From Sinosporangium siamense (GTDB lineage Bacteria; Actinomycetota; Actinomycetes; Streptosporangiales; Streptosporangiaceae): 64,000 nucleotides of DNA. The position numbers and the translations under genes were made by a program. Positions 15,443-38,502 of this stretch are shown here, piece by piece. How positions within the stretch are numbered: the stretch's first letter is position 1; every line of letters starts with the position of its first letter. The notes beneath the pieces were generated by a model, which saw only the letters and a list, made by a program, of their open reading frames with translations, did no database searches and was not told where the DNA came from. The stretch spans positions 16,717 to 80,716 of the forward strand of contig NZ_BOOW01000056.1 of the NCBI RefSeq assembly GCF_016863435.1, written 5' to 3'.

Positions 15443-15515
15443 GGGGCTATGGCGCAGTTGGTAGCGCGCCTCCATGGCATGGAGGAGGTCTGGGGTTCGA
15501 ATCCCCATAGCTCCA
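15443..15515 (+). tRNA. tRNA-Ala (anticodon GGC), copy 1
   Basis: 73-nt cloverleaf: 7-bp acceptor stem with G3:U70, anticodon loop AUGGCAU (anticodon GGC), TΨC arm GGTTCGAATCC, discriminator A. Confidence 0.9.
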
Positions 15516-15529
15516 CTTATTTTTACAGA

Positions 15530-17004: not shown

Positions 17005-17550
17005 TCAGGACTTACCGAGGATCGGCACGGCTGCCCGGTCGGGTTTGTAGTAGAAGTCGTACATCGCCTGGGCGAACTCGTCCTTCGACAAGCGGCCGTC
17101 CCGGTTGGCGTCGAGCATCTCGAACGCCTCACGTGCCAAAGGGCCCTCCACGTCGAAGGCCGCCCACAGGCGGAGATATTCCGGCCGGTTGAGCTTCTCG
17201 TCGCCGTCGGCGTCGAGCGCGTCCCACAACGCGTCGGTGATCGGCCACACCACCTGCGCCACGAAGGCCGTGCGGTCGAGGTGCGGGGAAAGCGCATGCC
17301 TGATGTATTCGTCCCGGCTGATGCGGCCGTCGCCGTCGAGGTCGATCACGCCGGCGGCGCTGTTCCACGAACGCTCATAAGCCTTGAGCACCATTTCGCG
17401 CTGCGGCGCGCCCAGCCCGAGGCGATCGCAGAGGGCCTCGGCCGCCACCGTCATGTCGCGACGGTCGAGATAGCCGTCGTGGTCCATGTCGCTGGTGTCG
17501 AAGGCCGAACCCGCGTTGCGCGCCAGCTGACCGGCGTAAGGAGAACTCAT
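17005..17550 (-). CDS. EF-hand calcium-binding protein (four EF-hand loops)
   Basis: Four canonical 12-residue loops: DMDHDGYLDRRD, DLDGDGRISRDE, DADGDEKLNRPE, DANRDGRLSKDE. Start ATG overlaps the CDPS stop (ATGA, 17547-17550). Confidence 0.8.
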   Translation of the reverse strand: MSSPYAGQLARNAGSAFDTSDMDHDGYLDRRDMTVAAEALCDRLGLGAPQREMVLKAYERSWNSAAGVIDLDGDGRISRDEYIRHALSPHLDRTAFVAQVVWPITDALWDALDADGDEKLNRPEYLRLWAAFDVEGPLAREAFEMLDANRDGRLSKDEFAQAMYDFYYKPDRAAVPILGKS

Positions 17551-18284
17551 CGTCCACCCCCTTGACGGTTATGGTTGCGGTGCGTGAGATGTGATGTCAA
17601 ATGAGTGACTAAGAACCCCTGCTCAGGGGCGGGGGAGATCGGTAAGACCCCGGAGTACAACTGATCGACGAGCGGCATCACCCGCGGATAGCAGAACAGC
17701 GACGACCCGACGCCGAGGATCGACGGCGAGTCGACCACGAGAGGCAACTCCGCGAAGAGGAACGGCAGCGCCGCCTCCCGCCGCCACCGCTCCAGCCCCG
17801 CCTCGCCCACCACGGCCCCCACCGCGCAGACGCAGTGCTCACGGAAGCCGGCGTCGCTCGTGTACAGCGACTCCACACGTGCCCGCAGCGCGAGGTAGGC
17901 CGCGTCGCCCGCCAGGTCGCCCCACGACAAGACCGGCACCTCCCCAGGCGCGACGCCGAGGACCGCGAGCGCCCGCCCCACCCGGTTGCGCGTGTTGCCC
18001 GCCGCCGCCCGCGCCTTCGCCGGCGCCCTGCCCGGCTCGCAGCCTTTCGCCACCAGGGTGCCCGCCAGCTCCGCGGGCCCCGGCACAAGCACACCGACCT
18101 TGCCGAACGTGCGCACAGCCCACCTCAGCAGCCCCGTCACGACTTGCTGGCTGAAGTAGCCGTTCAAGGCGCTGACGCCGATCAACACGTGCTCTCGCCG
18201 GGTGTAGATCTCCGAGCACCGCCCGCTCAACGGCCGGACCGCGACAGTGTCCATGTTCCTGAAAAATACCAAGCACCTCGCCAA
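17547..18284 (-). CDS. Cyclodipeptide synthase (CDPS, AlbC-like, aminoacyl-tRNA dependent)
   Basis: EHVLIGVSALNGYFSQ aligns to AlbC EHALIGISAGNSYFSQ. ELPLVVDSPSILGVGSSLFCYPRVMPL aligns to AlbC EAPLFADSPGVFSVPSSVLCYHIDTPI. Length ~245 aa. Start uncertain (18284 or internal M at 18254). Confidence 0.75.
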   Translation of the reverse strand: MARCLVFFRNMDTVAVRPLSGRCSEIYTRREHVLIGVSALNGYFSQQVVTGLLRWAVRTFGKVGVLVPGPAELAGTLVAKGCEPGRAPAKARAAAGNTRNRVGRALAVLGVAPGEVPVLSWGDLAGDAAYLALRARVESLYTSDAGFREHCVCAVGAVVGEAGLERWRREAALPFLFAELPLVVDSPSILGVGSSLFCYPRVMPLVDQLYSGVLPISPAPEQGFLVTHLTSHLTHRNHNRQGGGR

Positions 18285-18360: not shown

Positions 18361-18433
18361 GGGGCTATGGCGCAGCTGGTAGCGCGCCTCCATGGCATGG
18401 AGGAGGTCTGGGGTTCGAATCCCCATAGCTCCA
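18361..18433 (+). tRNA. tRNA-Ala (anticodon GGC), copy 2
   Basis: Identical to copy 1 except one D-loop base (AGCTGG vs AGTTGG). G3:U70 present. Confidence 0.9.
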
Positions 18434-18496
18434 CTCGAGGCAAGGGCGACGAGGGTCGGCGGAAAACCGCTGATCGGCGTCGCCTTCGTCATTGTT

Positions 18497-23070: not shown

Positions 23071-24144
23071 ATGGGAATCGCCTCTACTACCCGTCGTAAG
23101 GCCCTTGCCACCGCCGTCGTCGCCGCACCCTCACTGCTGGCGCTGACGTTGGTGCCGGGCTCGGCGTATGCCCACGGCACAATGAGCAACCCGCCAAGCA
23201 GGACGTGGGTCTGTTTCAACGAAGGTCCGGAGAACCCGAAGACCGCAGCGTGCAAACAAGCCGTCGCGATCGGCGGCACGCAGCCGCTGTACGACTGGCA
23301 CGAGGTCAACATCGGGGACGCCAACGGACGCCATAGACAGCTCATCCCCGACGGCAAGCTGTGCAGCGCCGGACGTGACAAGTATCGCGGCTTCGACCAG
23401 GCCCGAGCCGACTGGCCGACGGCGGCGCTGCCGTCGACCGGGCAGCACACGTTCAACTACCGCGCCACGGCTCCCCATCGGGGAACCATCGAGCTGTACG
23501 TCACCAAGGACGGCTACGACGCCACCAAGCCACTGAAGTGGTCCGACCTGGAGGCGCAGCCGTTCCACCGTGCGACCAACCCGACGCTCGTGAGCGGTGC
23601 GTATCAGATGAACGCCAAGCTCCCGAGCAAGAGGGGACGCCACCTCATCTACTCCATCTGGCAGCGGAGCGACAGCCCCGAGGCTTTCTACACCTGCTCT
23701 GACGTCGTCTTCGGGGGCGGCGGCGGCACCGACCCGACACCGACCCCGACGCCCACGGGGTCCCCCACGGCCTCGCCCACGGCCTCCCCCACGGGGTCGC
23801 CCACGGCATCGCCCACGGCCTCCCCGACCGGGTCGCCGACCCCGACCCCGACTCCCACGCCCACCGACCCGCCCGGCGGCGGGCATGGCGACATCAACGC
23901 CGGCGTCGGTGTGCGGCCCGCGATCGTGCGCACCGGAGAGTCCGTCGCGGTCAGCGCGCTGTGCGGCGGCAGTTCGGTCAAGAGCATCTCCTCACGCGCC
24001 TTCAACCCGCAGCGCGTGAACTCCCCCAACCCGGCCTCGAACTGGTATCCGACGTTCAAGGCCGCCCGCCAGGGCAAGCACACCGTCAGCGTCTTCTGCG
24101 CCAACGGCGGCAGCGCCCGCACCGTGCTCACCGTCACCAGGTGA
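23071..24144 (+). CDS. Secreted lytic polysaccharide monooxygenase (AA10 family) with Thr/Pro-rich linker and unassigned C-terminal domain
   Basis: Signal peptide ending ...GSAYA followed directly by HGTMSNPPSR (N-terminal His of the mature enzyme). Body resembles AA10/CBP21. (TPTP/SPTA)n linker. C-terminal ~110 aa with two Cys pairs is not an obvious CBM2. Confidence 0.75.
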   Translation: MGIASTTRRKALATAVVAAPSLLALTLVPGSAYAHGTMSNPPSRTWVCFNEGPENPKTAACKQAVAIGGTQPLYDWHEVNIGDANGRHRQLIPDGKLCSAGRDKYRGFDQARADWPTAALPSTGQHTFNYRATAPHRGTIELYVTKDGYDATKPLKWSDLEAQPFHRATNPTLVSGAYQMNAKLPSKRGRHLIYSIWQRSDSPEAFYTCSDVVFGGGGGTDPTPTPTPTGSPTASPTASPTGSPTASPTASPTGSPTPTPTPTPTDPPGGGHGDINAGVGVRPAIVRTGESVAVSALCGGSSVKSISSRAFNPQRVNSPNPASNWYPTFKAARQGKHTVSVFCANGGSARTVLTVTR

Positions 24145-24544
24145 GCACCCCATGAGCTGAGAGGGCCGGGCGTCCGAGTCGCCTGGTCCTCTCGCCCTTT
24201 CCGGCACCCGGCATGTCCGCCAGGCTCCGCCGTACCTCCCGAGGGTGCGCGGAGGCGATGACCGCCGGAGACGGCCTCAACGAGGCGGCCGACTCCGCGG
24301 GGCGCGCACAGGCGGCCGAGTGCCGCGTCGATCGGCAGCCGCTCCTCCCCCACGGGAGTGCGGAGGCCGGCTCGGCCCGGCCGGTCACCTGGCCGGGCCG
24401 GGCGGCGAGCGCCCGGAGCACCGCCATGGAGGCGGCGCCGAGCGGATGCACGACCCCCTCGACGAGTACGGCGTGGCCGTGCGGTTCGAGAATCACACCC
24501 CCGGCCCGGACACGTGTAGCGCGGCGGGGCAGCTCGTCGGCCAC
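24134..24544 (-). CDS. Possible stand-alone winged-helix (OmpR/SARP-type DNA-binding domain) protein; uncertain
   Basis: High GC3 coding signal. First 50 aa (VILEPHGHAVLVEGVVHPLGAASMAVLRALAARPGQVTGRAE) fit the OmpR-C wHTH pattern. Remainder is low complexity. Confidence 0.3.
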   Translation of the reverse strand: MADELPRRATRVRAGGVILEPHGHAVLVEGVVHPLGAASMAVLRALAARPGQVTGRAEPASALPWGRSGCRSTRHSAACARPAESAASLRPSPAVIASAHPREVRRSLADMPGAGKGERTRRLGRPALSAHGVLTW

Positions 24545-24795
24545 GGCCTTGGCGAGAGCCGCGAGCCGCGACCGGCCGGGGGTGAGCGGGGTATGGCGAG
24601 GAGCCGCACCTCTGAGCTATAGGAATAGCCCAAAACCCGGCAATTCGCCCAGCTGTAAATAACTGCCCCCCAGCTGAATACTTCTTCCCGCGCCAATGCC
24701 CCAGACCACCGCCCTCATTCTTCGCGCCATCCCTATAAAGCTGGAAGAATGCTTTTCAAGCACTAGATGTAGCACGGACGGGGCTGGGGGGAACG

Positions 24796-26121
24796 GTGGG
24801 CGCAGACGACGTACAAGCGAGTCCGCCACTGAGCCGAAAAAGCGGACCAATAGCAAGATTCTTCGTGTTTTCCAGCGGCGCGGACGCCGCGATCCTCGAT
24901 CAATGCCCGACTGTGGAACGCACGCGATATGCCGGACTGGGCGGCCTCGTGCTGACCACGGCGATCATGGCGGGTATCGCCATGACGGTGGCCTTGACCC
25001 TCGCCTTCCGCGCACCACTGGCGGTCGCGGTGGGGGCGGGCGCGTTGTGGTGCTTAATCATCTTCAATCTCGACCGATGGCTGGTCTCCGGCTATCGCCC
25101 GCAGACATCCAGACGCGGAAAGATCATGGCCGTCGGGCCGCGCATTCTGCTTTCCGTGGTGCTGGGACTCACCATCTCAGAACCGCTCGTGCTGCTCATT
25201 TTCGAGCCGGAAATCCGCGCAGAAGCCGTCGAGAACCGGGTCTCCGCGCAGAACGCCGCGGACGAGCGTATCGCCGGCAACACCGGCGCACAGCGCATCG
25301 AGGCCCTCAGAAAAGAGATCACGGATATCCGCGCGCAGAACACCGGCACCAATCCGGCCGGCGAGCTCGGAAAACTCATCCAGGAGCGCGACGAGGTCCA
25401 GAGGAACTGGCAGAGCAACGAAAAGGCACTGGCCGAGGCCAGGAACAAGGCTTTCGGCGAGGGAAACGGCACCGCGGGCAGCGGCGTGCCCGGCGCGGGG
25501 CCGAGATATGAGGAGCTCCGGGACGACGTCGCCACGCTCGATAGGAAGGCGGCCGATCTGAAGGCCGAGGAGGCGGGACTCGACCGGAGGATCGAGAGGG
25601 CGCGGCAGGCCGAGGAGACCCGCGTCAAGGAGCGGGAGGACGAGATCAGACGGCTCAGCGCCGCCCAGAACTCCCGGGCCGCCGAGCAGGCCGAGGCCAT
25701 CGGGCGCAGCGACGGGCTCGTGGCCCGCATCAACGCGCTGTTCACCCTGGGTGAGAAGCACACGGCGGTCTTCCTCGCCCACATCGTGCTCGCCCTGCTG
25801 ATCCTCCTCATCGACCTGCTGCCGATCACCGGGAAGATCCTCATGAGCAGCGGCGGCAGGAGCTCCTACGACAACCTCCTCGCCGCCAGGGAGATCGAGA
25901 TCGCCGAAGGCGCGGCCCTGCGTGTCCTTGAGGCCCGCGAGCGGACCACCCTGGCCACGATGAGGGCGGGCGAACGCAAGCGGGCCGCCCGCGACATCGC
26001 CCGCATTCACATGGCCGACGAACGCTACGAGCAGGAGCAGAGATCACGCCGGCGCCGCCGTTCCCTGGACGAGCGGGTGCCGTTCCAGGAGACGGGCGAG
26101 TGGAACGGACTGACACCGTGA
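24796..26121 (+). CDS. DUF4407-like membrane protein: two N-terminal TM helices, long coiled-coil, C-terminal TM
   Basis: TVERTRYAGLGGLVLTTAIMAGIAMTVAL...LWCLIIFNLDRWLV N-terminus. ~250-aa Glu/Arg/Ala-rich coiled coil. C-terminal hydrophobic helix (FLAHIVLALLILLIDLLPI). Preceded by an AT-rich putative promoter region at 24600-24800. Confidence 0.55.
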   Translation: MGADDVQASPPLSRKSGPIARFFVFSSGADAAILDQCPTVERTRYAGLGGLVLTTAIMAGIAMTVALTLAFRAPLAVAVGAGALWCLIIFNLDRWLVSGYRPQTSRRGKIMAVGPRILLSVVLGLTISEPLVLLIFEPEIRAEAVENRVSAQNAADERIAGNTGAQRIEALRKEITDIRAQNTGTNPAGELGKLIQERDEVQRNWQSNEKALAEARNKAFGEGNGTAGSGVPGAGPRYEELRDDVATLDRKAADLKAEEAGLDRRIERARQAEETRVKEREDEIRRLSAAQNSRAAEQAEAIGRSDGLVARINALFTLGEKHTAVFLAHIVLALLILLIDLLPITGKILMSSGGRSSYDNLLAAREIEIAEGAALRVLEARERTTLATMRAGERKRAARDIARIHMADERYEQEQRSRRRRRSLDERVPFQETGEWNGLTP

Positions 26122-27614
26122 CCGGCCCCGTGAACGGCACGCAGAGATCGGCCCGCCGCTTCGAGAAGGGTCCGGCCGACCGGCTGATCCACCTTGTCGA
26201 CCTGCCGAGCCGCATCCTGGTCGTGGAGGAGGGGCACCGGGTCGCCGTCCGGCACAACGGCAGGATCCTGCCCCGGCTCCTGCGCCCGGGGGTGCACATG
26301 CCGCTGTTCGGGCTGCCGCTCCTCGGCAACCTGGAGGTGGTGGTCTTCAGCGACCGCAAAGCCCGCCAGGCGGGCAGGGTCGCCAAGGTCCGCCTCCAGG
26401 ACGAGGCCTTCGCCGACTTCTCCTACGTCGCCTGGGTGCGCCTCGACGCCTTCACCGACGAGGAGGTCCTCGACTGGTTGCGGGAGTTCGAGACGACCGA
26501 CCTGTCGGACACCCGGCTGCTGAGCCGTGAGCTCGACTTCCGGGTGCGCCGGTCGTTGTCCCGCCTCACGGTGGCGCAGCTCCGGCACCGGGACTTCGAC
26601 CTTCCGGCCCACCTGGAGCGGGATCTCACCGGGACCCGCGGCGGCTTTCTGGAGATCGTCGCGATCGAGCAGGCCGCGGCGGTGGGGAACGTCACCGCGC
26701 TGGAGGACGACCTCGCCACCCGGCACCGGGTGCAGGACGACCTCTACCGGCGGGCCGAGCGGCTGGCCGGCGCCGTCGGCGACCTGCGGCCGGCCACCGG
26801 CGACGACCTCCAGCTCGCCCTGGTCGACGGCCGCCTTGAATGGGCCGACCGGGAACTCGGCGAACTCGCGAGGCTGTGCCGTACACACGGTCTGACCGAC
26901 CCCCGCACTTCGGCGGCGCTCGCGCGGTGCGCGGCGACCGTCGTCGGCGCCGCGCTGCTGCTGCGCCCCGGCGACGCCGGGCACCGGCGTCGCTCACAGG
27001 AGATGATCATGTCCTCGCGCGCCTGGGAGGTGCTGCTGCGCGTCCGCCCCACCGTGGGCGCGGCGGTCACTGAGGCCCTGCGCGACGACGACCCCGAGGC
27101 GGCGCTCCCCCTCCTCGGCGCGGTCTTTGGCCCACTCCGCACGACGGGCGACCCCGCCCCGAGCCGCCCCTGGGAGATCCCCTCCCACCTGGTCAGATCC
27201 CCGGCGGCGCAGCGGGCGGCGGCGGAGCTGACGGCGCCTGTGGCGGGATGCTGGGTCGGCGCCTCCCCCATGCCAGGGGAGGAGATGCTCTTCCTCGTCG
27301 CCCCCGACCCGGGCGCCGTACTGAAGGAGCTCAACGGCGACCACCTCGACCTCGTCGAACGGGCGGGGGCCGACCGGCTCCTCGTCCTCCCCCTGGAGGC
27401 CGGCCACACGTCCTGTCTGCCCGCGTGGTTCTATGCGATCGTCGGCCACATGCCCGGCCGCGTGACCGCCGCGGCCGCGGCCGACGGCACCGTGCTGCTC
27501 GGCGTCTCACCTGAGATCCGCGCCCGGGACGTGCCGAGAACCGCCGTCGCCGCCTTCGCCGGCGCCCTGTGCGGCCTCACCGGCGCTCCCGGGGTGGCCT
27601 TCGTCTCCACCTGA
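26118..27614 (+). CDS. Hypothetical protein, possibly with a divergent SPFH/band-7-like N-terminal region; translationally coupled to the DUF4407-like gene
   Basis: Start (ATG 26100 or GTG 26118) overlaps the upstream stop. ILVVEEGHRVAVRHNGRILPRLLRPGVHMPLFGLPLLGNLEVVVFSD resembles the SPFH core. Rest is alpha-helical and Ala/Arg-rich. Confidence 0.45.
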   Translation: MTGPVNGTQRSARRFEKGPADRLIHLVDLPSRILVVEEGHRVAVRHNGRILPRLLRPGVHMPLFGLPLLGNLEVVVFSDRKARQAGRVAKVRLQDEAFADFSYVAWVRLDAFTDEEVLDWLREFETTDLSDTRLLSRELDFRVRRSLSRLTVAQLRHRDFDLPAHLERDLTGTRGGFLEIVAIEQAAAVGNVTALEDDLATRHRVQDDLYRRAERLAGAVGDLRPATGDDLQLALVDGRLEWADRELGELARLCRTHGLTDPRTSAALARCAATVVGAALLLRPGDAGHRRRSQEMIMSSRAWEVLLRVRPTVGAAVTEALRDDDPEAALPLLGAVFGPLRTTGDPAPSRPWEIPSHLVRSPAAQRAAAELTAPVAGCWVGASPMPGEEMLFLVAPDPGAVLKELNGDHLDLVERAGADRLLVLPLEAGHTSCLPAWFYAIVGHMPGRVTAAAAADGTVLLGVSPEIRARDVPRTAVAAFAGALCGLTGAPGVAFVST

Positions 27615-27621
27615 CACACGC

Positions 27622-30600
27622 TCAGGCGCCTTCCGCCGTGCGGCGGAAGGCGATCAGCTCCCCGGAGGCGTTGACCACCAGGAGGCCGCCCGGAAGCGCG
27701 GTGAGGCCGGCCACTCCTGCGGGCACGCGGAACACGTCGGCGAGCCCGCGGCCGGCGCAGTCCCAGACCCGCACGGTGCCCTCGCCGTCGCCGCTGAACA
27801 CGACCGGTGTGCCGGCCACCTCACCGGTGGCCAGCGCGGTGACCGGGGTGTCCTGCGACCCCAGCGGCACACCACCGGGCCCCCACCAGATCCGGTACGG
27901 ATCATCCGGCGTCACCCTGGCTCCCGCCCCCGAGACAGCGGACCCGGCCGGCGGTCGCGCGGGCGACCCCTCCGGCGGCACACCGTCGCGGGCTCGCACG
28001 ACCAGCTCACCGGCCGCGTGCTCAAGGGCCAAAAGGTCGTCGCCGAGCACCTCGACCCGGTCGATCCGTACCCCGGCGCGCTCCCCGGCCGACGCGGGCG
28101 ACAAGGCGGGCGCCGCGGGACGGCACGAGCTGAGGTCCCAGACGTGCAACACACCCGAGTTGCCGCCGGTGACCGCGACCAAATGCCCGTCGACGCGGGT
28201 GACCTCCACCGCGTGCACCCCGTGCCCCGGGTGCACCGGCGGGTGGGACTCCCTGGCGATCGGGCCCCCGGCTCCGAGGTCCCACGTCACCACCTTGCCG
28301 TCGCGGCCGACCGTGACGGCGACCGGCCGCCCGTCGATCAGCGTCGCCGCCAGCGACTCCGCGGAGTCGGGGCCGGCGCCGATCCCGGCGGCAAGGGTGA
28401 GGCCGGAGCCGAGCTCCCACACCCGCAGCGTGCCGCCGCCCCCGGCGGTGACCGCCAGGGAGCGTCCCGAGGCCGTCAGGCAGATCGCGGCGTGCGCCGA
28501 CCCCCGGTGCGCGGTGCGGTGGGCGCCGACCTGTTCGCCGGTGCCGAGGTCGGTGACGCACACCCGGCCGTCGCGCGCGGTCGTCACGGCGAGGTCGCGG
28601 CCCCCCGCCCGCGCGCAGGCCACCGAGGTGATGTAGCCGAGCCTGCTGCCGGCTCTCTCCTTCAGGACCTCGCCCGTAGCCGCGTCGCGCACCTGCAACC
28701 AGCCGTCGCCGCTGGCCAGCAGGGCGACCTCCCGCCCGCCGAGCGAGGTGCGGGCCAGAGCGGGGAAGAAGCCCTTGGCCGACCACGTGCGTACCGCCCG
28801 GCCTCCGGCCAGCTCCCAGGCCTTGACCTGGCCGTCGTCCCCCGTGGTGATCGCGACCGGGTCGCCGTCGCGCAGCGCGCAGTCCAGCGCGAGGATCCTG
28901 CCGCGATGCGTCGGAAACGGCGGCCACAGGCGCCGTTCCCTGAGGTCCCAGACCGACAGCCAGCCTTCGCCGTCGGCTGCCACGACGAGGCCCGCCGCAC
29001 CGGACACCGCGCGTAGCAGCGCCACCCGCTGCTTCTTGCGGCTGCGGGGCAGCTCGAAGTCGCCTGGAGGTGGGGAGTGCCGCGCCGTCCCGTCCGGCCC
29101 GTGGGTGTCCCCGGGCGGACCGGCGACCCCGACCGACCAGACGGGCCGCCATGCCAGCGGCGGCGCCCCGGGCGGATGCGCGGCCCGTCTCGCCAGCTCG
29201 GCGAGGCCGGCGCGGGCCGCGCCGAGGGCGAGCTTGCTCCGGCGCTCCTCCAGCGAGGTACGGCGAGGCCGGCCGGCTTCGGCCACCACCCGGGCCAGGG
29301 TCTCCCCGCCCAGCGCGGCGACGGCGGGCAACCACCGGTGGTCGGCGCGGAGCAGAAACTCCGGGTCGTCCAGCAGGTCCGCCGCACGACCGGCGGCCTG
29401 GGCGTGCTGGAGCGCGTGGCGGATCAGGTATGGCTCCGCGGCCTCCCAGTCGCGGGCGCCGGGCGGCCCGAGGGCGGAGAGGAGCGCAGGGAGGTCCGCG
29501 TCCGCCCCGGATGTGCCGGTCGCGAGGTGGTCGACCAGCTCTTGGTGGAAAAGCCGGTAAAGCGCCGCCCCGCCGCCGGCCTCCGCGGACTGCCGGAGGA
29601 AGACACTGCCCGCGCGGAGGGTCTTCAGCAGTTCGTCGAAGCCCGGCTCGCGGTCGAGGCCCGCCCGCGCGGCGACGATCCGGCTCAGCACCCCGATCGG
29701 CATGCCCTCCCCCTTGGCCTCGGCGAGCACCGACAGGCAGGCGCGCAGCAAGGGGTGGGCCGCGTGCCACGCCCGGAGGTAGACCGCGAGCACCTCGGGC
29801 AGCGTGCGGGGCACGTCCACCGCGAACCGCCTGGCCTCTGCCGTGTCCCTCAGCGGGGAGCCGCTCGTGGAGTCGATGAGGAAGCCGGTGTAGAGGCCCG
29901 CGACAAGGAACTCGCCGCACTCCCTGCGGGCGCGCAGGCCGGTCAGCGCCTGGGCGATCTCCGCGGCGAAGGCGCCGCGGACGTCGCCGTGCGGGCGGTA
30001 TTCCGCGACGTCCTCCAGCAACCCGAAGACATATCTCGACAGGTCCTTGCGCAGGACCTCTCGGTCGACGGTGTCGAGGTCGGTGAGGGTGCCGAGAGCG
30101 CGGGCCCGCCCGGCGATCGGCTGGTATTCGCGGTAGTCGCGGCACCCCACCAGCACCCTGGCCGCGTGGCGCCCGTCCGGGCGAGGTGTGCTCGACAGGG
30201 GGAGGATGAGCTCGTTCATGACGGCCACACCGTCGTCGGCCTCGTCGAGGGCGTCGACCACGATGAGCGGGGGCGCGGCCAGGCCGAGGATGCGCCCGAT
30301 CAGCTCACCGGGTGTGGTGCTGGGCGGCAGGGAGAGCTGGGCGCCGAGTTGCTCGTTCACGGCGGCGACCACTCCGGCCGGGCCCCGGTGGCGGGCGTAG
30401 ACCGCGGCCACCCCGCCTCCTGTGGGCGACGGCAGCGGCGAGACACCGTCCAGCAGCGGGAGGGCGGCCTCGTAGAGCGAGGGGTGCGCCGCGCAGGCGA
30501 GCACGCTCACCAGGGCGGACTTTCCGCTGCCCGGGCCGCCGGTGACCATGCCGAGGTCCCCCGGGCCGCGGCCGCTCAGCCACGGCGTCAGCCGTACGAG

Positions 30601-31479
30601 CTCGTCCCTGCGGCCGGTGAACCGCCCGGCACGGCCGCCCGCCTCGCCCACTCCGATGCCGGACAGCAGGTCGAGGAAGTGCCGGTCGACCGGGCCGCCT
30701 TCCCGGGAGATCCGCCCCGGGGAGCGCGGGCGCGCGCCCGCGGCCGGGCCGCCGTTCCTGCGGGCGGCGCCGTTGGGGAAGAACGGCGGCACGAAGACGT
30801 CCTCGCTGGAGTCGAACGCGGTGGAGGCCACCTGCTGCTTCCACGCGCCTCCGGCGTGCGCGGCCCGGATGACGTGCCTGCGCACCGCCCTCGCGACGTC
30901 GGCGAACGGCACGTGGTCGCCGGCGGGATCCGCGTCGAACTCGCCTGCGGCGATGGAGCCGAGGACGGCGGCGAGCGCCTCGGTGAACCGCCCGTCGAAG
31001 GCCGGCCGGTCCGGCTGGCAGGCGGCGATCACCCAGGCGCGGTTGCCGGCTCCCGCCGTGCCGTAGTGCCAGGGCAGTCTGGCCAGGGCGCCGGAGTAGC
31101 AGAGGTCGAGCAGGAAGAGCGTGCGCGGACGGCCGGAGCCGAGCTGCGCGAGCTTGAGCCAGTGCTCGATGTCGTCGACGCGCTCGCCGTCGCTGCCGAG
31201 CGCGTAGACGATGCCGCGGGCGGCCTCGTCGCCGTGCGTGAGCAGGTGGAACACGAGCACCTGGTCCGGCCCGGCCCGGGTCAGCTCGCCGCGGACGATC
31301 TCACCGATGGCCGCGGAGGTCATCGGGCCGGTGTGCATCGCGCACTCATATCCGAGGGACCGCATCGCGGTCGCCAGAGTCTGTGCCCGCTCGACCGCGA
31401 ACGGCAGGTCGTCCCAGGTGTCGCCGGCGAACCGGGGAACCGCGATCAGGATCGCGCGTGGTAGTGCGAGAGAGCTCAT
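27622..31479 (-). CDS. Caspase-like protease – STAND (NACHT-type) NTPase – WD40 beta-propeller multidomain protein (1285 aa)
   Basis: N-terminal His/Cys dyad motifs (VFHLLTHGD ... LFLLDLCYSGA), metacaspase/orthocaspase-like. Walker A MVTGGPGSGKSALVSVLA, Walker B LIVVDALDEADDG. C-terminal ~550 aa with repeated WD-type blades (LSVWDL, VKAWEL, LRVWEL, VVTWDL, LHVWDL, VRVWDC). Start ATG overlaps the flotillin stop (ATGA 31476-31479). Confidence 0.85.
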   Translation of the reverse strand: MSSLALPRAILIAVPRFAGDTWDDLPFAVERAQTLATAMRSLGYECAMHTGPMTSAAIGEIVRGELTRAGPDQVLVFHLLTHGDEAARGIVYALGSDGERVDDIEHWLKLAQLGSGRPRTLFLLDLCYSGALARLPWHYGTAGAGNRAWVIAACQPDRPAFDGRFTEALAAVLGSIAAGEFDADPAGDHVPFADVARAVRRHVIRAAHAGGAWKQQVASTAFDSSEDVFVPPFFPNGAARRNGGPAAGARPRSPGRISREGGPVDRHFLDLLSGIGVGEAGGRAGRFTGRRDELVRLTPWLSGRGPGDLGMVTGGPGSGKSALVSVLACAAHPSLYEAALPLLDGVSPLPSPTGGGVAAVYARHRGPAGVVAAVNEQLGAQLSLPPSTTPGELIGRILGLAAPPLIVVDALDEADDGVAVMNELILPLSSTPRPDGRHAARVLVGCRDYREYQPIAGRARALGTLTDLDTVDREVLRKDLSRYVFGLLEDVAEYRPHGDVRGAFAAEIAQALTGLRARRECGEFLVAGLYTGFLIDSTSGSPLRDTAEARRFAVDVPRTLPEVLAVYLRAWHAAHPLLRACLSVLAEAKGEGMPIGVLSRIVAARAGLDREPGFDELLKTLRAGSVFLRQSAEAGGGAALYRLFHQELVDHLATGTSGADADLPALLSALGPPGARDWEAAEPYLIRHALQHAQAAGRAADLLDDPEFLLRADHRWLPAVAALGGETLARVVAEAGRPRRTSLEERRSKLALGAARAGLAELARRAAHPPGAPPLAWRPVWSVGVAGPPGDTHGPDGTARHSPPPGDFELPRSRKKQRVALLRAVSGAAGLVVAADGEGWLSVWDLRERRLWPPFPTHRGRILALDCALRDGDPVAITTGDDGQVKAWELAGGRAVRTWSAKGFFPALARTSLGGREVALLASGDGWLQVRDAATGEVLKERAGSRLGYITSVACARAGGRDLAVTTARDGRVCVTDLGTGEQVGAHRTAHRGSAHAAICLTASGRSLAVTAGGGGTLRVWELGSGLTLAAGIGAGPDSAESLAATLIDGRPVAVTVGRDGKVVTWDLGAGGPIARESHPPVHPGHGVHAVEVTRVDGHLVAVTGGNSGVLHVWDLSSCRPAAPALSPASAGERAGVRIDRVEVLGDDLLALEHAAGELVVRARDGVPPEGSPARPPAGSAVSGAGARVTPDDPYRIWWGPGGVPLGSQDTPVTALATGEVAGTPVVFSGDGEGTVRVWDCAGRGLADVFRVPAGVAGLTALPGGLLVVNASGELIAFRRTAEGA

Positions 31480-32924
31480 GCGTCGCCGGTGGAACCGGCA
31501 TCACCTTCCCCACGGGCGGACTGCGGCGGGCCGGGCTGCTGCCCGGCGGTGACGGCGGGCGGGACCAGCGCCGAGGCGAGACCGAGAGACGGCATGGCGG
31601 AGACGCCGCCGTTCCCCAGAATCGTCCGGACCATCTCCATGATCGGCAGACCGACCTGGGTGAGGGTGCTGAGCACACTGTTGGTCTCGCCGCCCGCGCT
31701 CTGGATGACGTGCTGAAGGTTCGGCAGCTCGACCTTGGCGGCCTTGGCGATCTCCGGGAGGTTTTCCGCGAGGGTGAGCAAGACGTACTGCTCGGCCTTG
31801 GCCGGGTCCATCGCGGCGATCTTCCCCTGGAGTTCGATGCCCTTCGCCTGGGCGCTCTGCAGCAGCCTCGCGACCTCCAGCTCGTTGAGCTGCCGGGTCT
31901 TGCGGACCTCGGCGGCGTTGATCTGGTCGGCCTCCCACGCCTTCAGCTCTATGCGCTTCCGCTCGACGATGTCGTCCCGCTCGGCTCGCTTCGCGGCGAG
32001 CTGCCTTTCCAGCTCGGCGTGTTTCAGCTCGCTTTCTGCCCGCTGCTGACGGAGCACCGCCTCGAATTCGGCTTGCGCCCGTTTCCGTTCGGCCTCAAGC
32101 TGCTCCTTGAAACGCTGTTTGTCGGCGTCGCTCCTGGCGAGCTCGCGTTCCTGCGTCTCGCTGCGCTGCCGGAGGGCGTATTTCTTCTCGGCAGCGTCGG
32201 CCATGGCCTGCTCCACCTCGACCTCGTAGGAGCGCTCGGCCTTCTCACGCCGCAACTTCGCGTCGATCTCGGTGGCCCGGCGGAGTTCCTCGGCGTGGCC
32301 GTCGTGGTCGTCGATCCGGGTGATGCCCACTTTGTCGACGACGAGCCCGCGGAGGTTGAAGTCGTGCTCCAATTGCTCCCGCATATGCTCGATCACGCTG
32401 GTCTGGTCGGAGACCAGCACCTCGAAGTCGATGTTGCCGATCACCGAGCGGACCTCGCTGCTGATGATGTCTTCAACCGCCTGAGCGAGCCCGGCGGGGT
32501 TTTTGAGATATCTCAGCGCCGCCCGCTGGATGAATTCGCGGCTCTCGCCGACGCGATAGCTGACCACGGCGTGCACGCCGACGCGAAGCATCTGCTGGGT
32601 CTCACATTGGACCGTCACCTTCGCGCTGCGCTCGGACAGGCTGATCTCGCCCTTATGGCGGCGCGGGGGCAGGACGAGCCTGGCCTTTCCCACGACCACC
32701 CGCAGGTCCTCTCCGTCCCTGCCGCTTCTGCCCACCACGCCGCCGGGGAAAATCAGGGCCGTTTGCGGGCCCGGGGTCTCCCACCAGCGTGAAACCACGA
32801 TGAGGGCCAGCACGGCTATGGCGCCGAGGCCGGCTAAGAGCCACGTCAGAAACACAGCACCTCCCGAGGGGAGAACAGGTGTGGCCGACCGCGCGGTAGT
32901 GCCCCCCGTTCTTGTTGAAATCAA
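31476..32924 (-). CDS. Flotillin-like SPFH/band-7 protein (N-terminal TM, SPFH domain, long EA-rich coiled coil)
   Basis: TM (VFLTWLLAGLGAIAVLALIVV). SPFH core (GEISLSERSAKVTVQCETQQMLRVGVHAVVSYRVGESREFIQRAAL). Flotillin-type coiled coil (KLRREKAERSYEVEVEQAMADAAEKKYALRQRSETQERELARS...). Preceded by an AT-rich promoter-like region at 32930-33100. Confidence 0.8.
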   Translation of the reverse strand: MISTRTGGTTARSATPVLPSGGAVFLTWLLAGLGAIAVLALIVVSRWWETPGPQTALIFPGGVVGRSGRDGEDLRVVVGKARLVLPPRRHKGEISLSERSAKVTVQCETQQMLRVGVHAVVSYRVGESREFIQRAALRYLKNPAGLAQAVEDIISSEVRSVIGNIDFEVLVSDQTSVIEHMREQLEHDFNLRGLVVDKVGITRIDDHDGHAEELRRATEIDAKLRREKAERSYEVEVEQAMADAAEKKYALRQRSETQERELARSDADKQRFKEQLEAERKRAQAEFEAVLRQQRAESELKHAELERQLAAKRAERDDIVERKRIELKAWEADQINAAEVRKTRQLNELEVARLLQSAQAKGIELQGKIAAMDPAKAEQYVLLTLAENLPEIAKAAKVELPNLQHVIQSAGGETNSVLSTLTQVGLPIMEMVRTILGNGGVSAMPSLGLASALVPPAVTAGQQPGPPQSARGEGDAGSTGDA

Positions 32925-33278
32925 TTATGGAAAACATTTAGGCGCGATGCGAGCAATGCGGCAGGCGATCATTAACTTCCGACAGGAAAGATCACACTCC
33001 GAATATCCCATAAAACGGGCAGAATACAATAATTCCCGGCAGGCAATCGAGAATCGGCCGCCGCGAAAAGCGCACACACGGGAGCAGGGGCGTACGGCGG
33101 AAGCCGGTGCATGACGATGCACGAGAGTGAATGCAAGACGCCGTGGACATGAGGGCCCGAACCTAGGCCGCATGCAAAACGCACGCCAGACTACACCTGG
33201 TGAGAGCGCATTGGGGGTAAACGACAAAGGGTGCCTGCGCCCTATGCGAACGCCGGCACCCGGGTGCACCACTAAATG

Positions 33279-33351
33279 TGGAGCTATGGGGATTCGAACC
33301 CCAGACCTCCTCCATGCCATGGAGGCGCGCTACCAACTGCGCCATAGCCCC
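33279..33351 (-). tRNA. tRNA-Ala (anticodon GGC), copy 3, opposite strand
   Basis: Reverse complement identical to copy 1. G3:U70 present. Confidence 0.9.
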
Positions 33352-33435
33352 TGGTCACCGCGCGGAGTTTTCTCTTTGCGGCGCTCGGAGAGCATATAGC
33401 CTCACGGCGTCTTCACCTAATCGGCGTCCCCCGGG

Positions 33436-33461
33436 GCTCGCGCCGGCATGCCGGCGCGAGC
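33436..33461. terminator. Perfect 26-nt GC-rich palindrome (GCTCGCGCCGGCA|TGCCGGCGCGAGC), probable terminator or protein-binding site
   Basis: Lies 16 nt downstream of the minus-strand histidine-phosphatase stop, between it and tRNA-Ala copy 3. Confidence 0.45.
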
Positions 33462-33476
33462 CGTACGAGATGTGGA

Positions 33477-34106
33477 TCAGTGTGCCGCTTCGGGGCTGTC
33501 GTCGCTGCGCACGGGCTCCGGGAGGGTGCCCGCGTTGTGTTCGAGCAGGCGCCATCCCTTGCGCCCCTGCTCGATGACAGACCAGGAGCAGTTGGACAAC
33601 CCGCCCAGGGTGTGCCAGAGCTCCTCAGGGAGCCCCAGCAGGCGGGCCAGCCCCAGCCGGAGGGCCGCTCCATGGGAGGCGACGACCAAGAGGCCGTCGT
33701 CGTCGATCTTCTCGGCCCAGCGATTGATCGACAACGAGACCCGCTCGGCGACACGCGTGACGGGTTCGCCGTCGGGAGCCTCCCACGCCTCGAACTGCTC
33801 GGGCCACCGTTCCCTGATCTCGGGGCGGGTGAGGCCCTCCCAGGCGCCACCGCTGCGTTCGCGGAGATCACGGTCGACCGTGATGCCGAGGCCGGTGACG
33901 CCGCTGAGGGCGGACGCCGTGGCGTGGGCCCTCTGCAGATCGGAGGAGACGAGCATGGTCGGCTTCAGCGAGGCGAGCAGGGATGCGGCCCTTCGCGCCT
34001 GCCGGACGCCGGTCTCGTCGAGGGGTATGTCGGAGTGGCCCTGGAAACGTTGTTCGAGGTTCCACTTTGTCTGGCCGTGCCGCCAGCAGACGACTCGGCG
34101 GCTCAT
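33477..34106 (-). CDS. Histidine phosphatase family protein (phosphoglycerate-mutase-like)
   Basis: RHG motif (VVCWRHGQTKWN), catalytic His region (VVASHGAALR). Conserved position downstream of rsfS in actinobacteria. Confidence 0.85.
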   Translation of the reverse strand: MSRRVVCWRHGQTKWNLEQRFQGHSDIPLDETGVRQARRAASLLASLKPTMLVSSDLQRAHATASALSGVTGLGITVDRDLRERSGGAWEGLTRPEIRERWPEQFEAWEAPDGEPVTRVAERVSLSINRWAEKIDDDGLLVVASHGAALRLGLARLLGLPEELWHTLGGLSNCSWSVIEQGRKGWRLLEHNAGTLPEPVRSDDSPEAAH

Positions 34107-38422: not shown

Positions 38423-38502
38423 GGTGCCAGCGCATCCACTGGGCACATAACCCTAGCGCGGGATCACCACTGGTATCAGAAGGCACGCCGTACACAAAAG
38501 AG

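What the first reader, a model, noticed from the sequence alone, without database searches (positions are those of the whole stretch)
24796..27614. Convergent partner pair: DUF4407-like coiled-coil membrane protein plus a possibly SPFH-like protein facing the caspase-STAND operon
Two more genes with membrane-scaffold character sit tail-to-tail with the caspase-STAND gene. Only 7 nt separate the stop codons at 27614 and 27622. The first has 2 TM, a ~250-aa coiled coil and a C-terminal TM. The second has an N-terminus resembling the SPFH core.

They are translationally coupled to each other (overlap at 26118-26121) and are preceded by a distinctly AT-rich stretch (24600-24800). The SPFH assignment of the second gene is pattern-based and weak.

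Four neighbouring genes would then share a membrane-microdomain plus coiled-coil theme, which suggests a single functional island rather than chance.
Basis: partly seen in the sequence, partly recalled or inferred. Interest (0 to 1): 0.6.

Follow-up and report, generated by a model that had tools for sequence, protein, structure and literature searches.

The report
SPFH-scaffolded caspase-STAND membrane gene cassette
The two genes are a DUF4407 membrane protein and a very rare, highly diverged SPFH (flotillin/prohibitin-fold) protein that always travel with a facing flotillin-like gene and a caspase-STAND-WD40 gene in filamentous actinomycetes, so the four genes look like one undescribed membrane-based cell-death or immunity module.

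Summary
Two coding genes (24796-26121 and 26118/26100-27614, + strand) overlap each other. They end 7 nt from the stop codon of a convergent caspase-STAND-WD40 gene and follow one of the three lowest-GC stretches in the window.

The full four-gene cassette recurs at 30-55% identity, in the same order, orientation and coupling, in Acrocarpospora, Streptosporangiaceae NEAU-GS5 and Actinomadura graeca. A truncated contig holds three of the four genes. All flanks are unrelated. Distant relatives of gene 2 carry their own TM anchor and sit in operons with a HerA-like ATPase plus TPR-CHAT protease, or with E1/JAB genes.

Best reading: one membrane-associated caspase-STAND conflict or programmed-cell-death module with SPFH scaffolds. 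It resembles, but is not, the EACC1-caspase system. The mechanism is inferred, not shown.

The parts
24581..24795 (.). Low-GC (about 56-57%) non-coding stretch upstream of the DUF4407 gene. Presumed promoter region of the plus-strand gene pair.
   Evidence: GC is 0.557-0.572 against a window mean of 0.699 (sd 0.05), one of only three such stretches in 64 kb. There is no sigma-70 consensus match, no Rfam family and no Pfam-matching ORF.
24796..26121 (+). DUF4407-family membrane protein (441 aa). It has three N-terminal hydrophobic segments, a helical region of about 180 aa with a conserved Gly/Pro-rich break, a fourth TM segment (324-347) and a basic C-terminal tail.
   Evidence: PF14362 at E 5.3e-73, 246 bits. 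Hydropathy. Conserved motifs FNLDRW, ISEP, GxGP and LLIDxLP. Only generic coiled-coil matches in the PDB. GC3 0.84.
26118..27614 (+). Divergent TM-less SPFH-family protein (498 aa from GTG 26118, or 504 aa from GTG 26100). It overlaps the DUF4407 stop codon.
26187..26687 (+). SPFH (Band 7) fold domain of gene 2, residues about 24-190. It is followed by a 30-residue helix at 192-221.
26691..27128 (+). Helical region of gene 2 (residues about 192-337): the post-SPFH helix plus a six-helix bundle.
   Evidence: Model. This is the least conserved part of the family alignment.
27165..27611 (+). C-terminal alpha/beta domain of gene 2 (residues about 350-498). It is preceded by the near-invariant W352-x-x-P355...P362 motif and is the family's signature domain.
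   Evidence: It is the best-matching stretch in three of the distant members, P0010, P0011 and P0014. Conserved columns. No match in Pfam or in PDB sequence searches. Confident strands and helices in the model.
27615..27621 (.). Seven-nucleotide gap between the convergent stop codons.
   Evidence: Sequence read.
27627..27652 (.). Perfect 12-nt inverted repeat (CGCCTTCCGCCG / CGGCGGAAGGCG, 2-nt loop). It begins 13 nt after the gene 2 stop and lies inside the last codons of the STAND gene. Possibly a bidirectional terminator or RNA-end hairpin.
   Evidence: An imperfect counterpart lies at the same junction in L001. None is found in L002, L003 or L006.
27622..31479 (-). Caspase (Peptidase_C14-like) - STAND P-loop NTPase (AAA_16) - WD40 beta-propeller protein, 1285 aa.
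   Evidence: Pfam hits. NCBIfam caspase_w_EACC1 scores 25.9 bits, below its cutoff of 140. Catalytic His82 and Cys127 are invariant in four orthologues. Walker A GGPGSGKS is read.
31476..32924 (-). TM-anchored flotillin-like SPFH/Band_7 protein (482 aa) with a long charged helical region. Its stop overlaps the STAND start by 4 nt.
   Evidence: PF01145 at 54.5 bits. FloT model at 43 bits against a cutoff of 700, so it is not a FloT orthologue. TM segment at residues 20-48. The 4-nt overlap is repeated in L002, L003 and L006.
32925..33277 (.). Low-GC (about 56%) non-coding stretch upstream of the Band_7 gene. Presumed promoter region of the minus-strand pair.
   Evidence: The ORF 32925-33320 has GC3 of 0.54, so it is not coding-like.
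33278..33351 (-). tRNA-Ala(GGC) gene whose 3' end points at the cassette. It marks the cassette boundary.
   Evidence: ARAGORN and Rfam at 66 bits. No partial tRNA copy or att-like repeat lies at the other boundary.

Best explanation
The two genes are half of a four-gene, membrane-associated conflict or programmed-cell-death module of filamentous actinomycetes. The window is Sinosporangium siamense.

**Shown**
- Gene 1 is a polytopic DUF4407 membrane protein.
- Gene 2 is a cytoplasmic, TM-less SPFH-fold protein with a family-specific C-terminal alpha/beta domain, translationally coupled to gene 1.
- The convergent pair encodes a TM-anchored flotillin-like SPFH protein coupled to a caspase-STAND-WD40 protein with an intact His/Cys dyad and Walker A motif.
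- The four genes stay together, in the same order and orientation, across deep divergence and changing genomic locations.

**Inferred mechanism**
1. As in HflK/C, prohibitin, flotillin, erlin and stomatin, the two SPFH proteins form ring- or cage-like oligomers on the cytoplasmic face of the membrane. This rests on general knowledge of the family and on the solved complexes that are the best structural matches.
2. DUF4407 supplies the membrane anchor for the TM-less SPFH protein. Distant relatives of gene 2 that lack a DUF4407 neighbour carry their own N-terminal TM helix.
3. The WD40 propeller of the STAND protein senses a trigger, such as phage or membrane damage. NTP-dependent oligomerisation then activates the caspase domain, apoptosome-style.
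4. The SPFH platform either holds the protease or its membrane substrate in check, or delivers the protease to it. The output is most likely proteolysis-triggered membrane damage or arrest, with DUF4407 or the SPFH proteins as candidate substrates or effectors.
For: **Identity**
- DUF4407 at 246 bits.
- Band_7, caspase, AAA_16 and WD40 in the facing pair. The catalytic dyad is invariant.

**Linkage**
- The same four genes, order and orientation occur in L002 (Acrocarpospora catenulata), L003 (Streptosporangiaceae NEAU-GS5) and L006 (Actinomadura graeca). L001 is truncated after the third gene.
- All four proteins diverge in parallel: 55, then 46-30%.
- None of six window flank genes is present within 10 kb in the other loci.
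- The convergent junction is always tight, from an apparent overlap in the gene calls to a 64-nt gap.
- The Band_7/STAND 4-nt overlap is conserved in 4 of 4 complete loci.
- The two lowest-GC stretches lie exactly at the two outer ends.

**Independent association**
- Distant gene 2 relatives head operons of the form SPFH-like, a conserved 330-405-aa protein, a HerA-like ATPase and a TPR-CHAT (caspase-fold) protease: Parafrankia elaeagni L007, and L009/L010. L008 shows only the first two genes.
- One relative sits with E1-like/ThiF and JAB genes, which match CBASS-type PADLOC models.
- Those relatives carry an N-terminal TM helix: P0011, P0014, and P0010 when read from its upstream in-frame start.

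**Precedent**
Kaur et al. 2020 (PMC7159879) describe a membrane-associated two-gene EACC1-caspase system in actinobacteria, with STAND and repeat domains after the caspase. They also note Band7-like domains as multimerising modules in related systems.
Against: - There is no experimental data and no transcript data.
- All cassette hosts belong to one order, Streptosporangiales, and there are only four other loci. Shared ancestry could contribute to the linkage.
- None of the four proteins matches any PADLOC defence model. The window neighbourhood is not an obvious defence island: LPMO, a two-component system, histidine phosphatase and M48 peptidase.
- More distant caspase-STAND-WD40 relatives lack DUF4407, the SPFH partner and Band_7. 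The accessory genes are therefore not obligatory for that protease family.
- DUF4407 elsewhere keeps different company: NYN, PP2C, FHA and FtsW, or a protein kinase and FHA.
- No protein-protein contact, oligomeric state, substrate or trigger could be tested here.
- The two SPFH proteins show no detectable profile-profile similarity. A hetero-oligomer like HflK/HflC is speculative.
Confidence: 0.55

Rival explanations
1. The module is developmental or housekeeping rather than immune. The SPFH proteins and DUF4407 organise membrane microdomains in hyphae, for example for septation, cell-wall synthesis or stress. The caspase-STAND acts as a regulator of compartment death or turnover during the life cycle of these sporulating actinomycetes.
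For: All named hosts are filamentous actinomycetes. DUF4407 genes elsewhere sit next to FtsW/RodA, FHA, PP2C and Ser/Thr kinase genes. The window neighbourhood is not a defence island. There are no PADLOC hits. Kaur et al. link such systems to a multicellular habit.
Against: The cassette is patchy and sits at a different locus in each genome. The gene 2 family is extremely rare, which is unlike a core developmental function. Distant relatives sit with HerA-like, CHAT, E1 and JAB genes, and in L007 near an RHS toxin gene and a transposase gene, which is conflict-type company.
Confidence: 0.2
2. These are two independent two-gene modules that are neighbours only by inheritance. DUF4407 plus the SPFH-like protein form their own membrane scaffold or stress unit, comparable to SPFH-NfeD or PspA-type systems. 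It has no functional tie to the caspase-STAND operon.
For: The pairs are on opposite strands with separate low-GC upstream regions. A hairpin sits at the junction in the window. All cassette hosts are from one order. Related caspase-STAND genes exist without the pair.
Against: No instance of the cassette-clade pair without the facing STAND gene was found in 5 of 5 loci, despite 30-55% identity and complete turnover of flanks. The gene 2 family is independently tied to another caspase-fold protease (CHAT) in Frankiales and in metagenomes.
Confidence: 0.15
3. DUF4407 is the toxic membrane effector and the SPFH-like protein is its dedicated inhibitor or chaperone, in a toxin-antitoxin-like relationship. 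The caspase removes the inhibitor on activation.
For: The gene pair is tightly coupled, with the membrane protein first. The SPFH partner evolves fastest of the four. Some SPFH proteins are known to be cleaved by operon-partner proteases (stomatin and the STOPP/NfeD protease; established knowledge, not tested here).
Against: The TM-bearing distant relatives have no DUF4407 neighbour yet keep the protease association. So the conserved role of the family does not require DUF4407. No toxicity data exist.
Confidence: 0.1

Closest known systems
[quoted passage not shown]
   Same: It is actinobacterial. A 5' gene for a TM-anchored protein is followed by a 3' gene with an N-terminal caspase-superfamily peptidase and then variable modules that include STAND NTPases and superstructure-forming repeats. 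It is proposed to work at the membrane. The best NCBIfam hit for the caspase domain here is the EACC1-associated caspase model.
   Different: The 5' gene here is a 482-aa Band_7/SPFH protein, not the small EACC1 domain; no EACC1 hit appears in the Pfam scan. The caspase scores 25.9 bits against a cutoff of 140. A second, convergent pair (DUF4407 plus a TM-less SPFH protein) is added, which that paper does not describe.
SPFH cage-protease partnerships (HflK/C-FtsH, prohibitin-m-AAA, stomatin-NfeD/STOPP)
   Same: Gene 2 and gene 4 both have the SPFH fold. The best structural matches are exactly these cage-forming proteins. An SPFH scaffold is genetically tied to a protease.
   Different: The protease is a soluble caspase-STAND-WD40, not FtsH, an m-AAA protease or NfeD. 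Gene 2 lacks a membrane anchor and carries a helical bundle plus a novel alpha/beta domain instead of the canonical CC1-CC2-C-terminal cap. No FtsH or NfeD gene is in the cassette.
Bacterial flotillins (FloT/FloA)
   Same: Gene 4 has an N-terminal TM segment, an SPFH domain and a long Glu/Ala/Lys/Arg-rich helical region.
   Different: The FloT equivalog model scores 43 bits against a cutoff of 700. The operon partner is a caspase-STAND rather than NfeD2.
Apoptosome-type STAND-caspase machines and protease-activated bacterial effectors (Apaf-1/caspase-9; bacterial gasdermin-protease operons)
   Same: A STAND NTPase with WD40 sensor repeats is joined to a caspase-fold protease. The expected logic is trigger-dependent oligomerisation followed by proteolysis (discussion quoted).
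   Different: Protease and NTPase are fused in one chain. No gasdermin or other recognised effector is present. The candidate membrane components are SPFH and DUF4407 proteins.
DUF4407 (PF14362)
   Same: There is a full-length profile match (positions 2-297 of 297), with the conserved TM-proximal motifs.
   Different: The family has no assigned function. Only three papers in the searched library mention it; none names it in title or abstract, and none was read. Other members have different neighbours. Only this subclade is paired with the SPFH-like protein.

Membership tests
DUF4407 (PF14362), gene 1 | Profile score above Pfam's gathering threshold over the whole domain | tested here: met
   246.3 bits against a cutoff of 31.3; residues 33-366 cover profile positions 2-297 of 297.
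DUF4407 (PF14362), gene 1 | Membrane protein with TM segments flanking a long helical region | tested here: met
   Hydrophobic segments at 47-68, 72-92, 112-136 and 324-347. Region 140-320 is helical and charged, with a Gly/Pro break. PDB profile hits are coiled coils only.
SPFH / Band_7 (PF01145), gene 2 | The protein itself reaches the Band_7 gathering score | tested here: not met
   No Band_7 hit at E up to 1 for the window protein or for P0002.
SPFH / Band_7 (PF01145), gene 2 | Homologues in the same family reach the Band_7 score over the aligned region | tested here: met
   P0012 29.4 bits and P0013 25.8 bits (cutoff 23.6). The orthologues in L002 and L003 score 22.5 and 22.4 bits. All hits cover residues about 19-199, which align with window residues about 25-200.
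SPFH / Band_7 (PF01145), gene 2 | SPFH three-dimensional fold | tested here: met
SPFH / Band_7 (PF01145), gene 2 | N-terminal membrane anchor | tested here: not met
   No TM segment is found in the window protein. An anchor is present in the distant relatives P0011 and P0014, and in P0010 when read from its upstream in-frame start.
SPFH / Band_7 (PF01145), gene 2 | Assembly into large ring or cage oligomers | not testable with these tools
   No multimer prediction or experiment was available.
EACC1-caspase two-gene system (Kaur et al. 2020) | 5' gene encodes the EACC1 domain | tested here: not met
   The 5' gene matches only Band_7 in the Pfam scan at E up to 1. I assume from memory that the library holds an EACC1 model. 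Its presence was not checked, although the library does hold the sister models EAD2, VMAP-C and TCAD9.
EACC1-caspase two-gene system (Kaur et al. 2020) | 3' gene with an N-terminal caspase followed by variable modules such as STAND and repeats | tested here: met
   Peptidase_C14 at residues 9-174, AAA_16 at 286-417 and WD40 propellers at 830-1120.
EACC1-caspase two-gene system (Kaur et al. 2020) | Caspase belongs to the EACC1-associated subfamily (NF047832) | tested here: not met
   25.9 bits against a cutoff of 140.
Catalogued anti-phage defence systems (PADLOC-DB v2) | Any component matches a defence-system model | tested here: not met
   No hit at E up to 0.1 for any of the four proteins. 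Only genes in the operons of distant relatives hit HerA, mad8, JAB and E1-E2 models.
Flotillin FloT (NF058507), gene 4 | Equivalog score | tested here: not met
   43.2 bits against a cutoff of 700. It is an SPFH protein (Band_7 54.5 bits) but not a FloT orthologue.
SPFH-NfeD or HflK/C-FtsH operons | Partner NfeD or FtsH gene in the operon | tested here: not met
   Pfam scans of the four cassette genes and ten neighbours show no NfeD or FtsH domains.

The most novel reading that the evidence does not exclude
The cassette is a new class of bacterial immune or cell-death machine. A pair of SPFH scaffolds, one TM-anchored and one tethered through DUF4407, builds a membrane cage that gates an apoptosome-like caspase-STAND-WD40. 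The rare gene 2 family (SPFH plus a novel C-terminal domain) would be a dedicated adaptor that couples SPFH cages to caspase-fold proteases: Peptidase_C14 here, and TPR-CHAT with a HerA-like ATPase in Frankia-type operons. That would extend the SPFH-protease regulatory principle (HflK/C-FtsH, prohibitin-m-AAA) to caspases. It would also give DUF4407 its first function, as a membrane anchor or effector.
Probability: 0.3. Interest if true: 0.8.

Novelty: new variant of a known kind. Interest (0 to 1): 0.6.

Why it matters
SPFH proteins (flotillins, prohibitins, stomatins, HflK/C) are universal membrane scaffolds. Their best-understood job is to corral AAA+ or serine proteases.

Caspase-STAND proteins are the bacterial counterparts of apoptosomes and inflammasomes, and their membrane partners and effectors are mostly unknown.

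A conserved cassette that joins two SPFH proteins and a DUF4407 membrane protein to a caspase-STAND-WD40 would give three things:
- a concrete, testable link between membrane microdomain scaffolds and caspase-type cell-death or immune signalling in bacteria;
- a first functional context for DUF4407;
- a new, very rare SPFH subfamily, defined by a signature C-terminal domain, that recurs with caspase-fold proteases in two different operon types.

If the cassette turns out to be only lineage-specific synteny, the value shrinks to improved annotation of two hypothetical proteins.

Tried and rejected
- **First AlphaFold run** with only two sequences gave pLDDT 43.5 and was unusable. It was replaced by a 9-sequence alignment.
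- **Word-indexed protein search** found only the protein itself and one 54% relative, both with the single sequence and with the family alignment. The exhaustive HMMER search was needed to find the family.
- **Profile-profile comparison** of the gene 2 family with the neighbouring Band_7 family found no significant similarity (probability 0.4). The idea that gene 2 is a recent duplicate of gene 4 is rejected.
- **Genome-collection scan** with the cassette-clade alignment returned only the two loci already known. The wider alignment had no searchable block.
- **Viral contig scans** for both genes found nothing. PHROGs also found nothing. The genes are not phage-borne.
- **PADLOC** had no hit for any cassette protein.
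- **Genomic-island test at the tRNA-Ala boundary.** No partial tRNA copy or flanking direct repeat was found. Integration there is not supported.
- **ORF 24134-24544 (-)** looked to me like an OmpR-type winged-helix fragment. It has no Pfam hit, so the idea is dropped.
- **Rfam** on 24000-33600 found only the tRNA. The sigma-70 consensus scan found no promoter.
- **Metagenome scan with the caspase domain** found 7 related STAND loci, none with DUF4407, the SPFH partner or Band_7. The accessory genes are therefore clade-specific.
- **Literature.** DUF4407 appears in only three papers, never in a title or abstract, and I did not read them. No SPFH-based anti-phage system was found.
- **Unavailable libraries.** The AFDB fold libraries were unavailable, so the C-terminal domain of gene 2 could not be compared with predicted structures.


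Full report
**1. What is in the sequence**

The window has about 70% GC. The protein database names it as Sinosporangium siamense.

- ORF 24796-26121 (+, 441 aa) and ORF 26100/26118-27614 (+, 504/498 aa) both show the strong third-position GC bias of real genes here: GC3 0.84 and 0.93.
- The first gene ends with TGA at 26119-26121. The second can start at GTG 26118 (GTGA overlap) or at GTG 26100, which follows an AGGAG at the right distance and is the start of the 504-aa product listed under NCBI. Either start makes the genes overlap.
- The second gene ends with TGA at 27612-27614. Seven nt later, TCA at 27622-27624 is the stop of a 1285-aa minus-strand gene.
- That gene's ATG overlaps by 4 nt the stop of a 482-aa minus-strand gene.
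- The stretch 24600-24800 is 57% GC against 69.9 +/- 5%. Only three places in the window have 200-nt GC of 56% or less, and two of them are the upstream regions of the two convergent pairs.

- DUF4407 has 3+1 hydrophobic segments rather than 2+1.
- Its inter-TM helical region is about 180 aa, with a conserved Gly/Pro-rich break.
- The 24796 start is better supported than the shorter 418-aa product listed under NCBI, because conserved residues lie upstream of that shorter start.

**2. Identity of the four proteins**

Gene 1 is an unambiguous DUF4407 member: PF14362, 246 bits, full-length. It has no solved homologue; the PDB hits are generic coiled coils. DUF4407 appears in only three papers of the searched library.

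By the positive-inside rule, read from the sequence, the basic loop at 93-111 and the Arg-rich tail after TM4 are cytoplasmic. The helical hairpin could then be extracytoplasmic. This topology is inferred and not tested.

Gene 2 has no hit in Pfam, NCBIfam, PADLOC or PHROGs. An exhaustive HMMER search of 1.84 billion cluster representatives found only 9 proteins at E of 0.001 or better. Three tests support an SPFH fold.
- Within this small family, P0012 (29.4 bits) and P0013 (25.8 bits) pass the Band_7 gathering score of 23.6. The Acrocarpospora and NEAU-GS5 orthologues fall just short at 22.5 and 22.4 bits. All hits cover the N-terminal region, which aligns with window residues about 25-200.
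- The family profile's best PDB hit is the flotillin-2 Band 7 domain, at a marginal E of 0.067.

The architecture of gene 2 is as follows.

| Residues | Element |
|---|---|
| about 24-190 | SPFH domain |
| 192-221 | 30-residue helix |
| 230-337 | six-helix bundle |
| W352-x-x-P355...P362 | near-invariant motif |
| about 362-495 | alpha/beta domain |

In three of the distant members (P0010, P0011, P0014) the best-matching stretch is this alpha/beta domain. It matches nothing in Pfam or in PDB sequence searches. There is no TM segment. Gene 2 is not a recent copy of gene 4, because profile-profile comparison is insignificant.

Gene 3 combines a caspase domain (Peptidase_C14, marginal by itself), an AAA_16-type STAND P-loop and WD40 propellers. 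The caspase His82 and Cys127 are invariant in four orthologues. Gene 4 is a TM-anchored Band_7 protein (54.5 bits) with a long charged helical region. It is flotillin-like but far below the FloT equivalog cutoff.

**3. Is the four-gene block a unit?**

Homologue look-ups gave four more loci.

| Locus | Source | Content |
|---|---|---|
| L001 | unnamed Logan contig | genes 1-3, truncated inside gene 3 |
| L002 | Acrocarpospora catenulata | all four genes |
| L003 | Streptosporangiaceae bacterium NEAU-GS5 | all four genes |
| L006 | Actinomadura graeca chromosome | all four genes |

- Each locus has DUF4407 and the about 470-500-aa SPFH-like gene on one strand. The AAA_16-WD40 gene of 1257-1357 aa and Band_7 converge on them from the other strand.
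- BLASTP identities to the window proteins fall in parallel for all four genes. DUF4407 gives 55, 46, 43 and 43%; the partner 54, 35, 34 and 30%; STAND 57, 44, 42 and 38%; Band_7 41, 37 and 29%.
- The flanks differ everywhere. They are LPMO and histidine phosphatase here, 2OG oxygenase and DoxX in L002, HxlR and baeRF in L003, an unassigned gene and an RNase_T gene in L006, and an AraC/DJ-1 regulator in L001.
- tblastn finds none of six window flank genes in the other loci.
- The Band_7/STAND 4-nt overlap is present in all four complete loci. The DUF4407-partner spacing ranges from a 4-nt overlap to 67 nt. The convergent junction ranges from an apparent overlap in the gene calls to a 64-nt gap.

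This is good comparative evidence for one functional module. The caveats are the small sample of five loci and that every named host belongs to one order, Streptosporangiales.

**4. What the wider family says**

The more distant relatives of gene 2 are not next to DUF4407 or Band_7.
- In Parafrankia elaeagni (L007) and in L009/L010, the SPFH-like gene heads an operon. It is followed by a conserved 389-405-aa protein of unknown family, a HerA/TraG-like P-loop ATPase of about 950-1010 aa that matches PADLOC HerA and mad8 models, and a TPR-CHAT protease in L007 and L009. L010 ends just after the ATPase gene.
- The short contig L008 shows only the SPFH-like gene and the conserved 381-aa gene.
- In L005 the gene follows JAB and ThiF/E1-like genes that match CBASS-type models. 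It precedes the same conserved protein and a HerA-like ATPase.
- These relatives have an N-terminal TM helix: P0011, P0014, and P0010 when read from its upstream in-frame start.

So the family is tied to caspase-fold proteases in two different operon types. Where the protein has lost its own anchor, a membrane protein gene (DUF4407) sits immediately upstream.

Conversely, more distant caspase-STAND-WD40 relatives from metagenomes lack all three accessory genes. One of them sits beside a VMAP/MoxR pair. DUF4407 genes elsewhere have other neighbours: NYN, PP2C, FHA and FtsW on Rhodococcus plasmids, and a kinase with FHA in L004. The cassette is therefore a clade-specific assembly of promiscuous parts.

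**5. Most likely mechanism (inferred)**

The best structural matches of gene 2 are solved cage- or ring-forming SPFH complexes. Several of these regulate proteases. The EACC1-caspase membrane system of Kaur et al. (PMC7159879) offers a related logic. From these analogies I propose the following.
1. The two SPFH proteins form a membrane-attached oligomeric platform.
2. DUF4407 anchors the TM-less SPFH protein, and may also be the membrane effector or substrate.
3. The WD40-STAND part senses a trigger and oligomerises.
4. The caspase then cleaves a component of the platform to cause membrane damage or arrest.

None of these steps could be tested here.

Rivals are a developmental or membrane-organising role, two independent modules kept together by ancestry, and a toxin/inhibitor relationship between genes 1 and 2.

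**6. Comparison with known systems and novelty**

The closest described system is the EACC1-caspase two-gene system. The module here fails its defining features, because the 5' gene is Band_7 and the caspase subfamily score is 25.9 against a cutoff of 140.
- It is not a FloT orthologue.
- It is not an HflK/C-FtsH or SPFH-NfeD operon.
- It is not in PADLOC.

Kaur et al. mention Band7-like domains only as multimerising modules on vWA proteins. I found no paper describing this cassette or the gene 2 family. I rate it a new variant of a known kind: STAND-caspase conflict systems, here with SPFH and DUF4407 membrane components.

**7. Other checks**

- A perfect 12-nt-arm hairpin at 27627-27652 begins 13 nt after the gene 2 stop, inside the 3' end of the STAND gene. 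A weaker one is at the same junction in L001 and none in the other loci.
- A tRNA-Ala(GGC) gene at 33278-33351 (-) points at the cassette, but there is no att-like repeat at the other end.
- Rfam finds nothing else.
- There are no phage relatives.

Noticed in passing
window 15443-15516 (+), 18361-18434 (+), 33278-33351 (-): Three near-identical full-length tRNA-Ala(GGC) genes lie within 18 kb, one of them inverted. The third lies about 350 nt upstream of the Band_7 gene, with its 3' end pointing into the cassette. The flanks of the three copies are unrelated, and no partial copy marks an island boundary.
   Followed up: partly
window 17547-18284 (-): A cyclodipeptide synthase gene (PF16715, E 9e-54) sits between the two plus-strand tRNA-Ala(GGC) copies. 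CDPS enzymes use aminoacyl-tRNAs as substrates, so the clustering with extra tRNA-Ala genes may not be a coincidence.
   Followed up: no
window 27627-27652: A perfect 12-nt inverted repeat (CGCCTTCCGCCG/CGGCGGAAGGCG, 2-nt loop) begins 13 nt after the gene 2 stop and lies inside the last codons of the convergent STAND gene. An imperfect hairpin is at the same junction in L001, and none in L002, L003 or L006.
   Followed up: partly
L007 9740-19360 (Parafrankia elaeagni); L009 1243-10835; L010 1214-8097; L008 1723-4573: An undescribed operon in L007 and L009 encodes a TM-anchored SPFH-like protein, a conserved 389-405-aa protein ending in ...EANVAFRFPVLANDLxIADW with no family, a HerA/TraG-like ATPase of about 950-1010 aa, and a TPR-CHAT protease of about 1250 aa. 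L010 ends just after the ATPase gene, and L008 shows only the first two genes. In L007 it lies near an RHS toxin gene, a transposase gene and a second CHAT gene.
   Followed up: partly
L005 1490-10263: Another context for the same SPFH-like family runs JAB-PKD protein, ThiF/E1-like protein (4-nt overlap with the next gene), SPFH-like protein, the conserved 328-aa protein, a 159-aa protein and a HerA-like 954-aa ATPase. This is a ubiquitin-like-conjugation flavoured conflict locus.
   Followed up: partly
L007 9740-10000: The annotated start of P0010 is probably too far downstream. An in-frame upstream Met adds a clear TM helix (VLKFFLLSVIPAVVIPAAMILIFRVL), matching P0011 and P0014.
   Followed up: yes
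L014 4129-12663 and L015 5142-12414 (Rhodococcus plasmids pFiD188 and pLW2): Long DUF4407 proteins of about 800 aa sit in a conserved row: NYN-domain protein, DUF4407, PP2C phosphatase, FHA protein, FtsW/RodA. On pFiD188 this row lies next to HNH endonuclease and cytosine methyltransferase genes. This is a different DUF4407 context.
   Followed up: no
L021 1885-4315: One metagenomic relative of the caspase-STAND-WD40 gene lies about 3 kb downstream of an EAD2-VMAP protein and a MoxR-like AAA gene. This is the VMAP ternary-system pair of Kaur et al. 2020.
   Followed up: no
window 24796 versus 24865: The 418-aa version of the DUF4407 protein listed under NCBI corresponds to a start at 24865. 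That start cuts off N-terminal residues conserved in all orthologues (R14, G17, P18). The 24796 GTG start fits better.
   Followed up: yes
window 36659-38446 (-): A Ser/Thr protein kinase (595 aa) 4 kb from the cassette has a weak, sub-threshold hit to TCAD9, a ternary-complex-associated domain from the same conflict-system literature (E 0.0066, 16 bits against a cutoff of 40). It is probably noise.
   Followed up: no
L003 19514-20581: A baeRF-family (bacterial/archaeal eRF1-like) gene lies about 1.2 kb from the Band_7 end of the cassette in Streptosporangiaceae NEAU-GS5. From memory, this family is linked to conflict systems.
   Followed up: no
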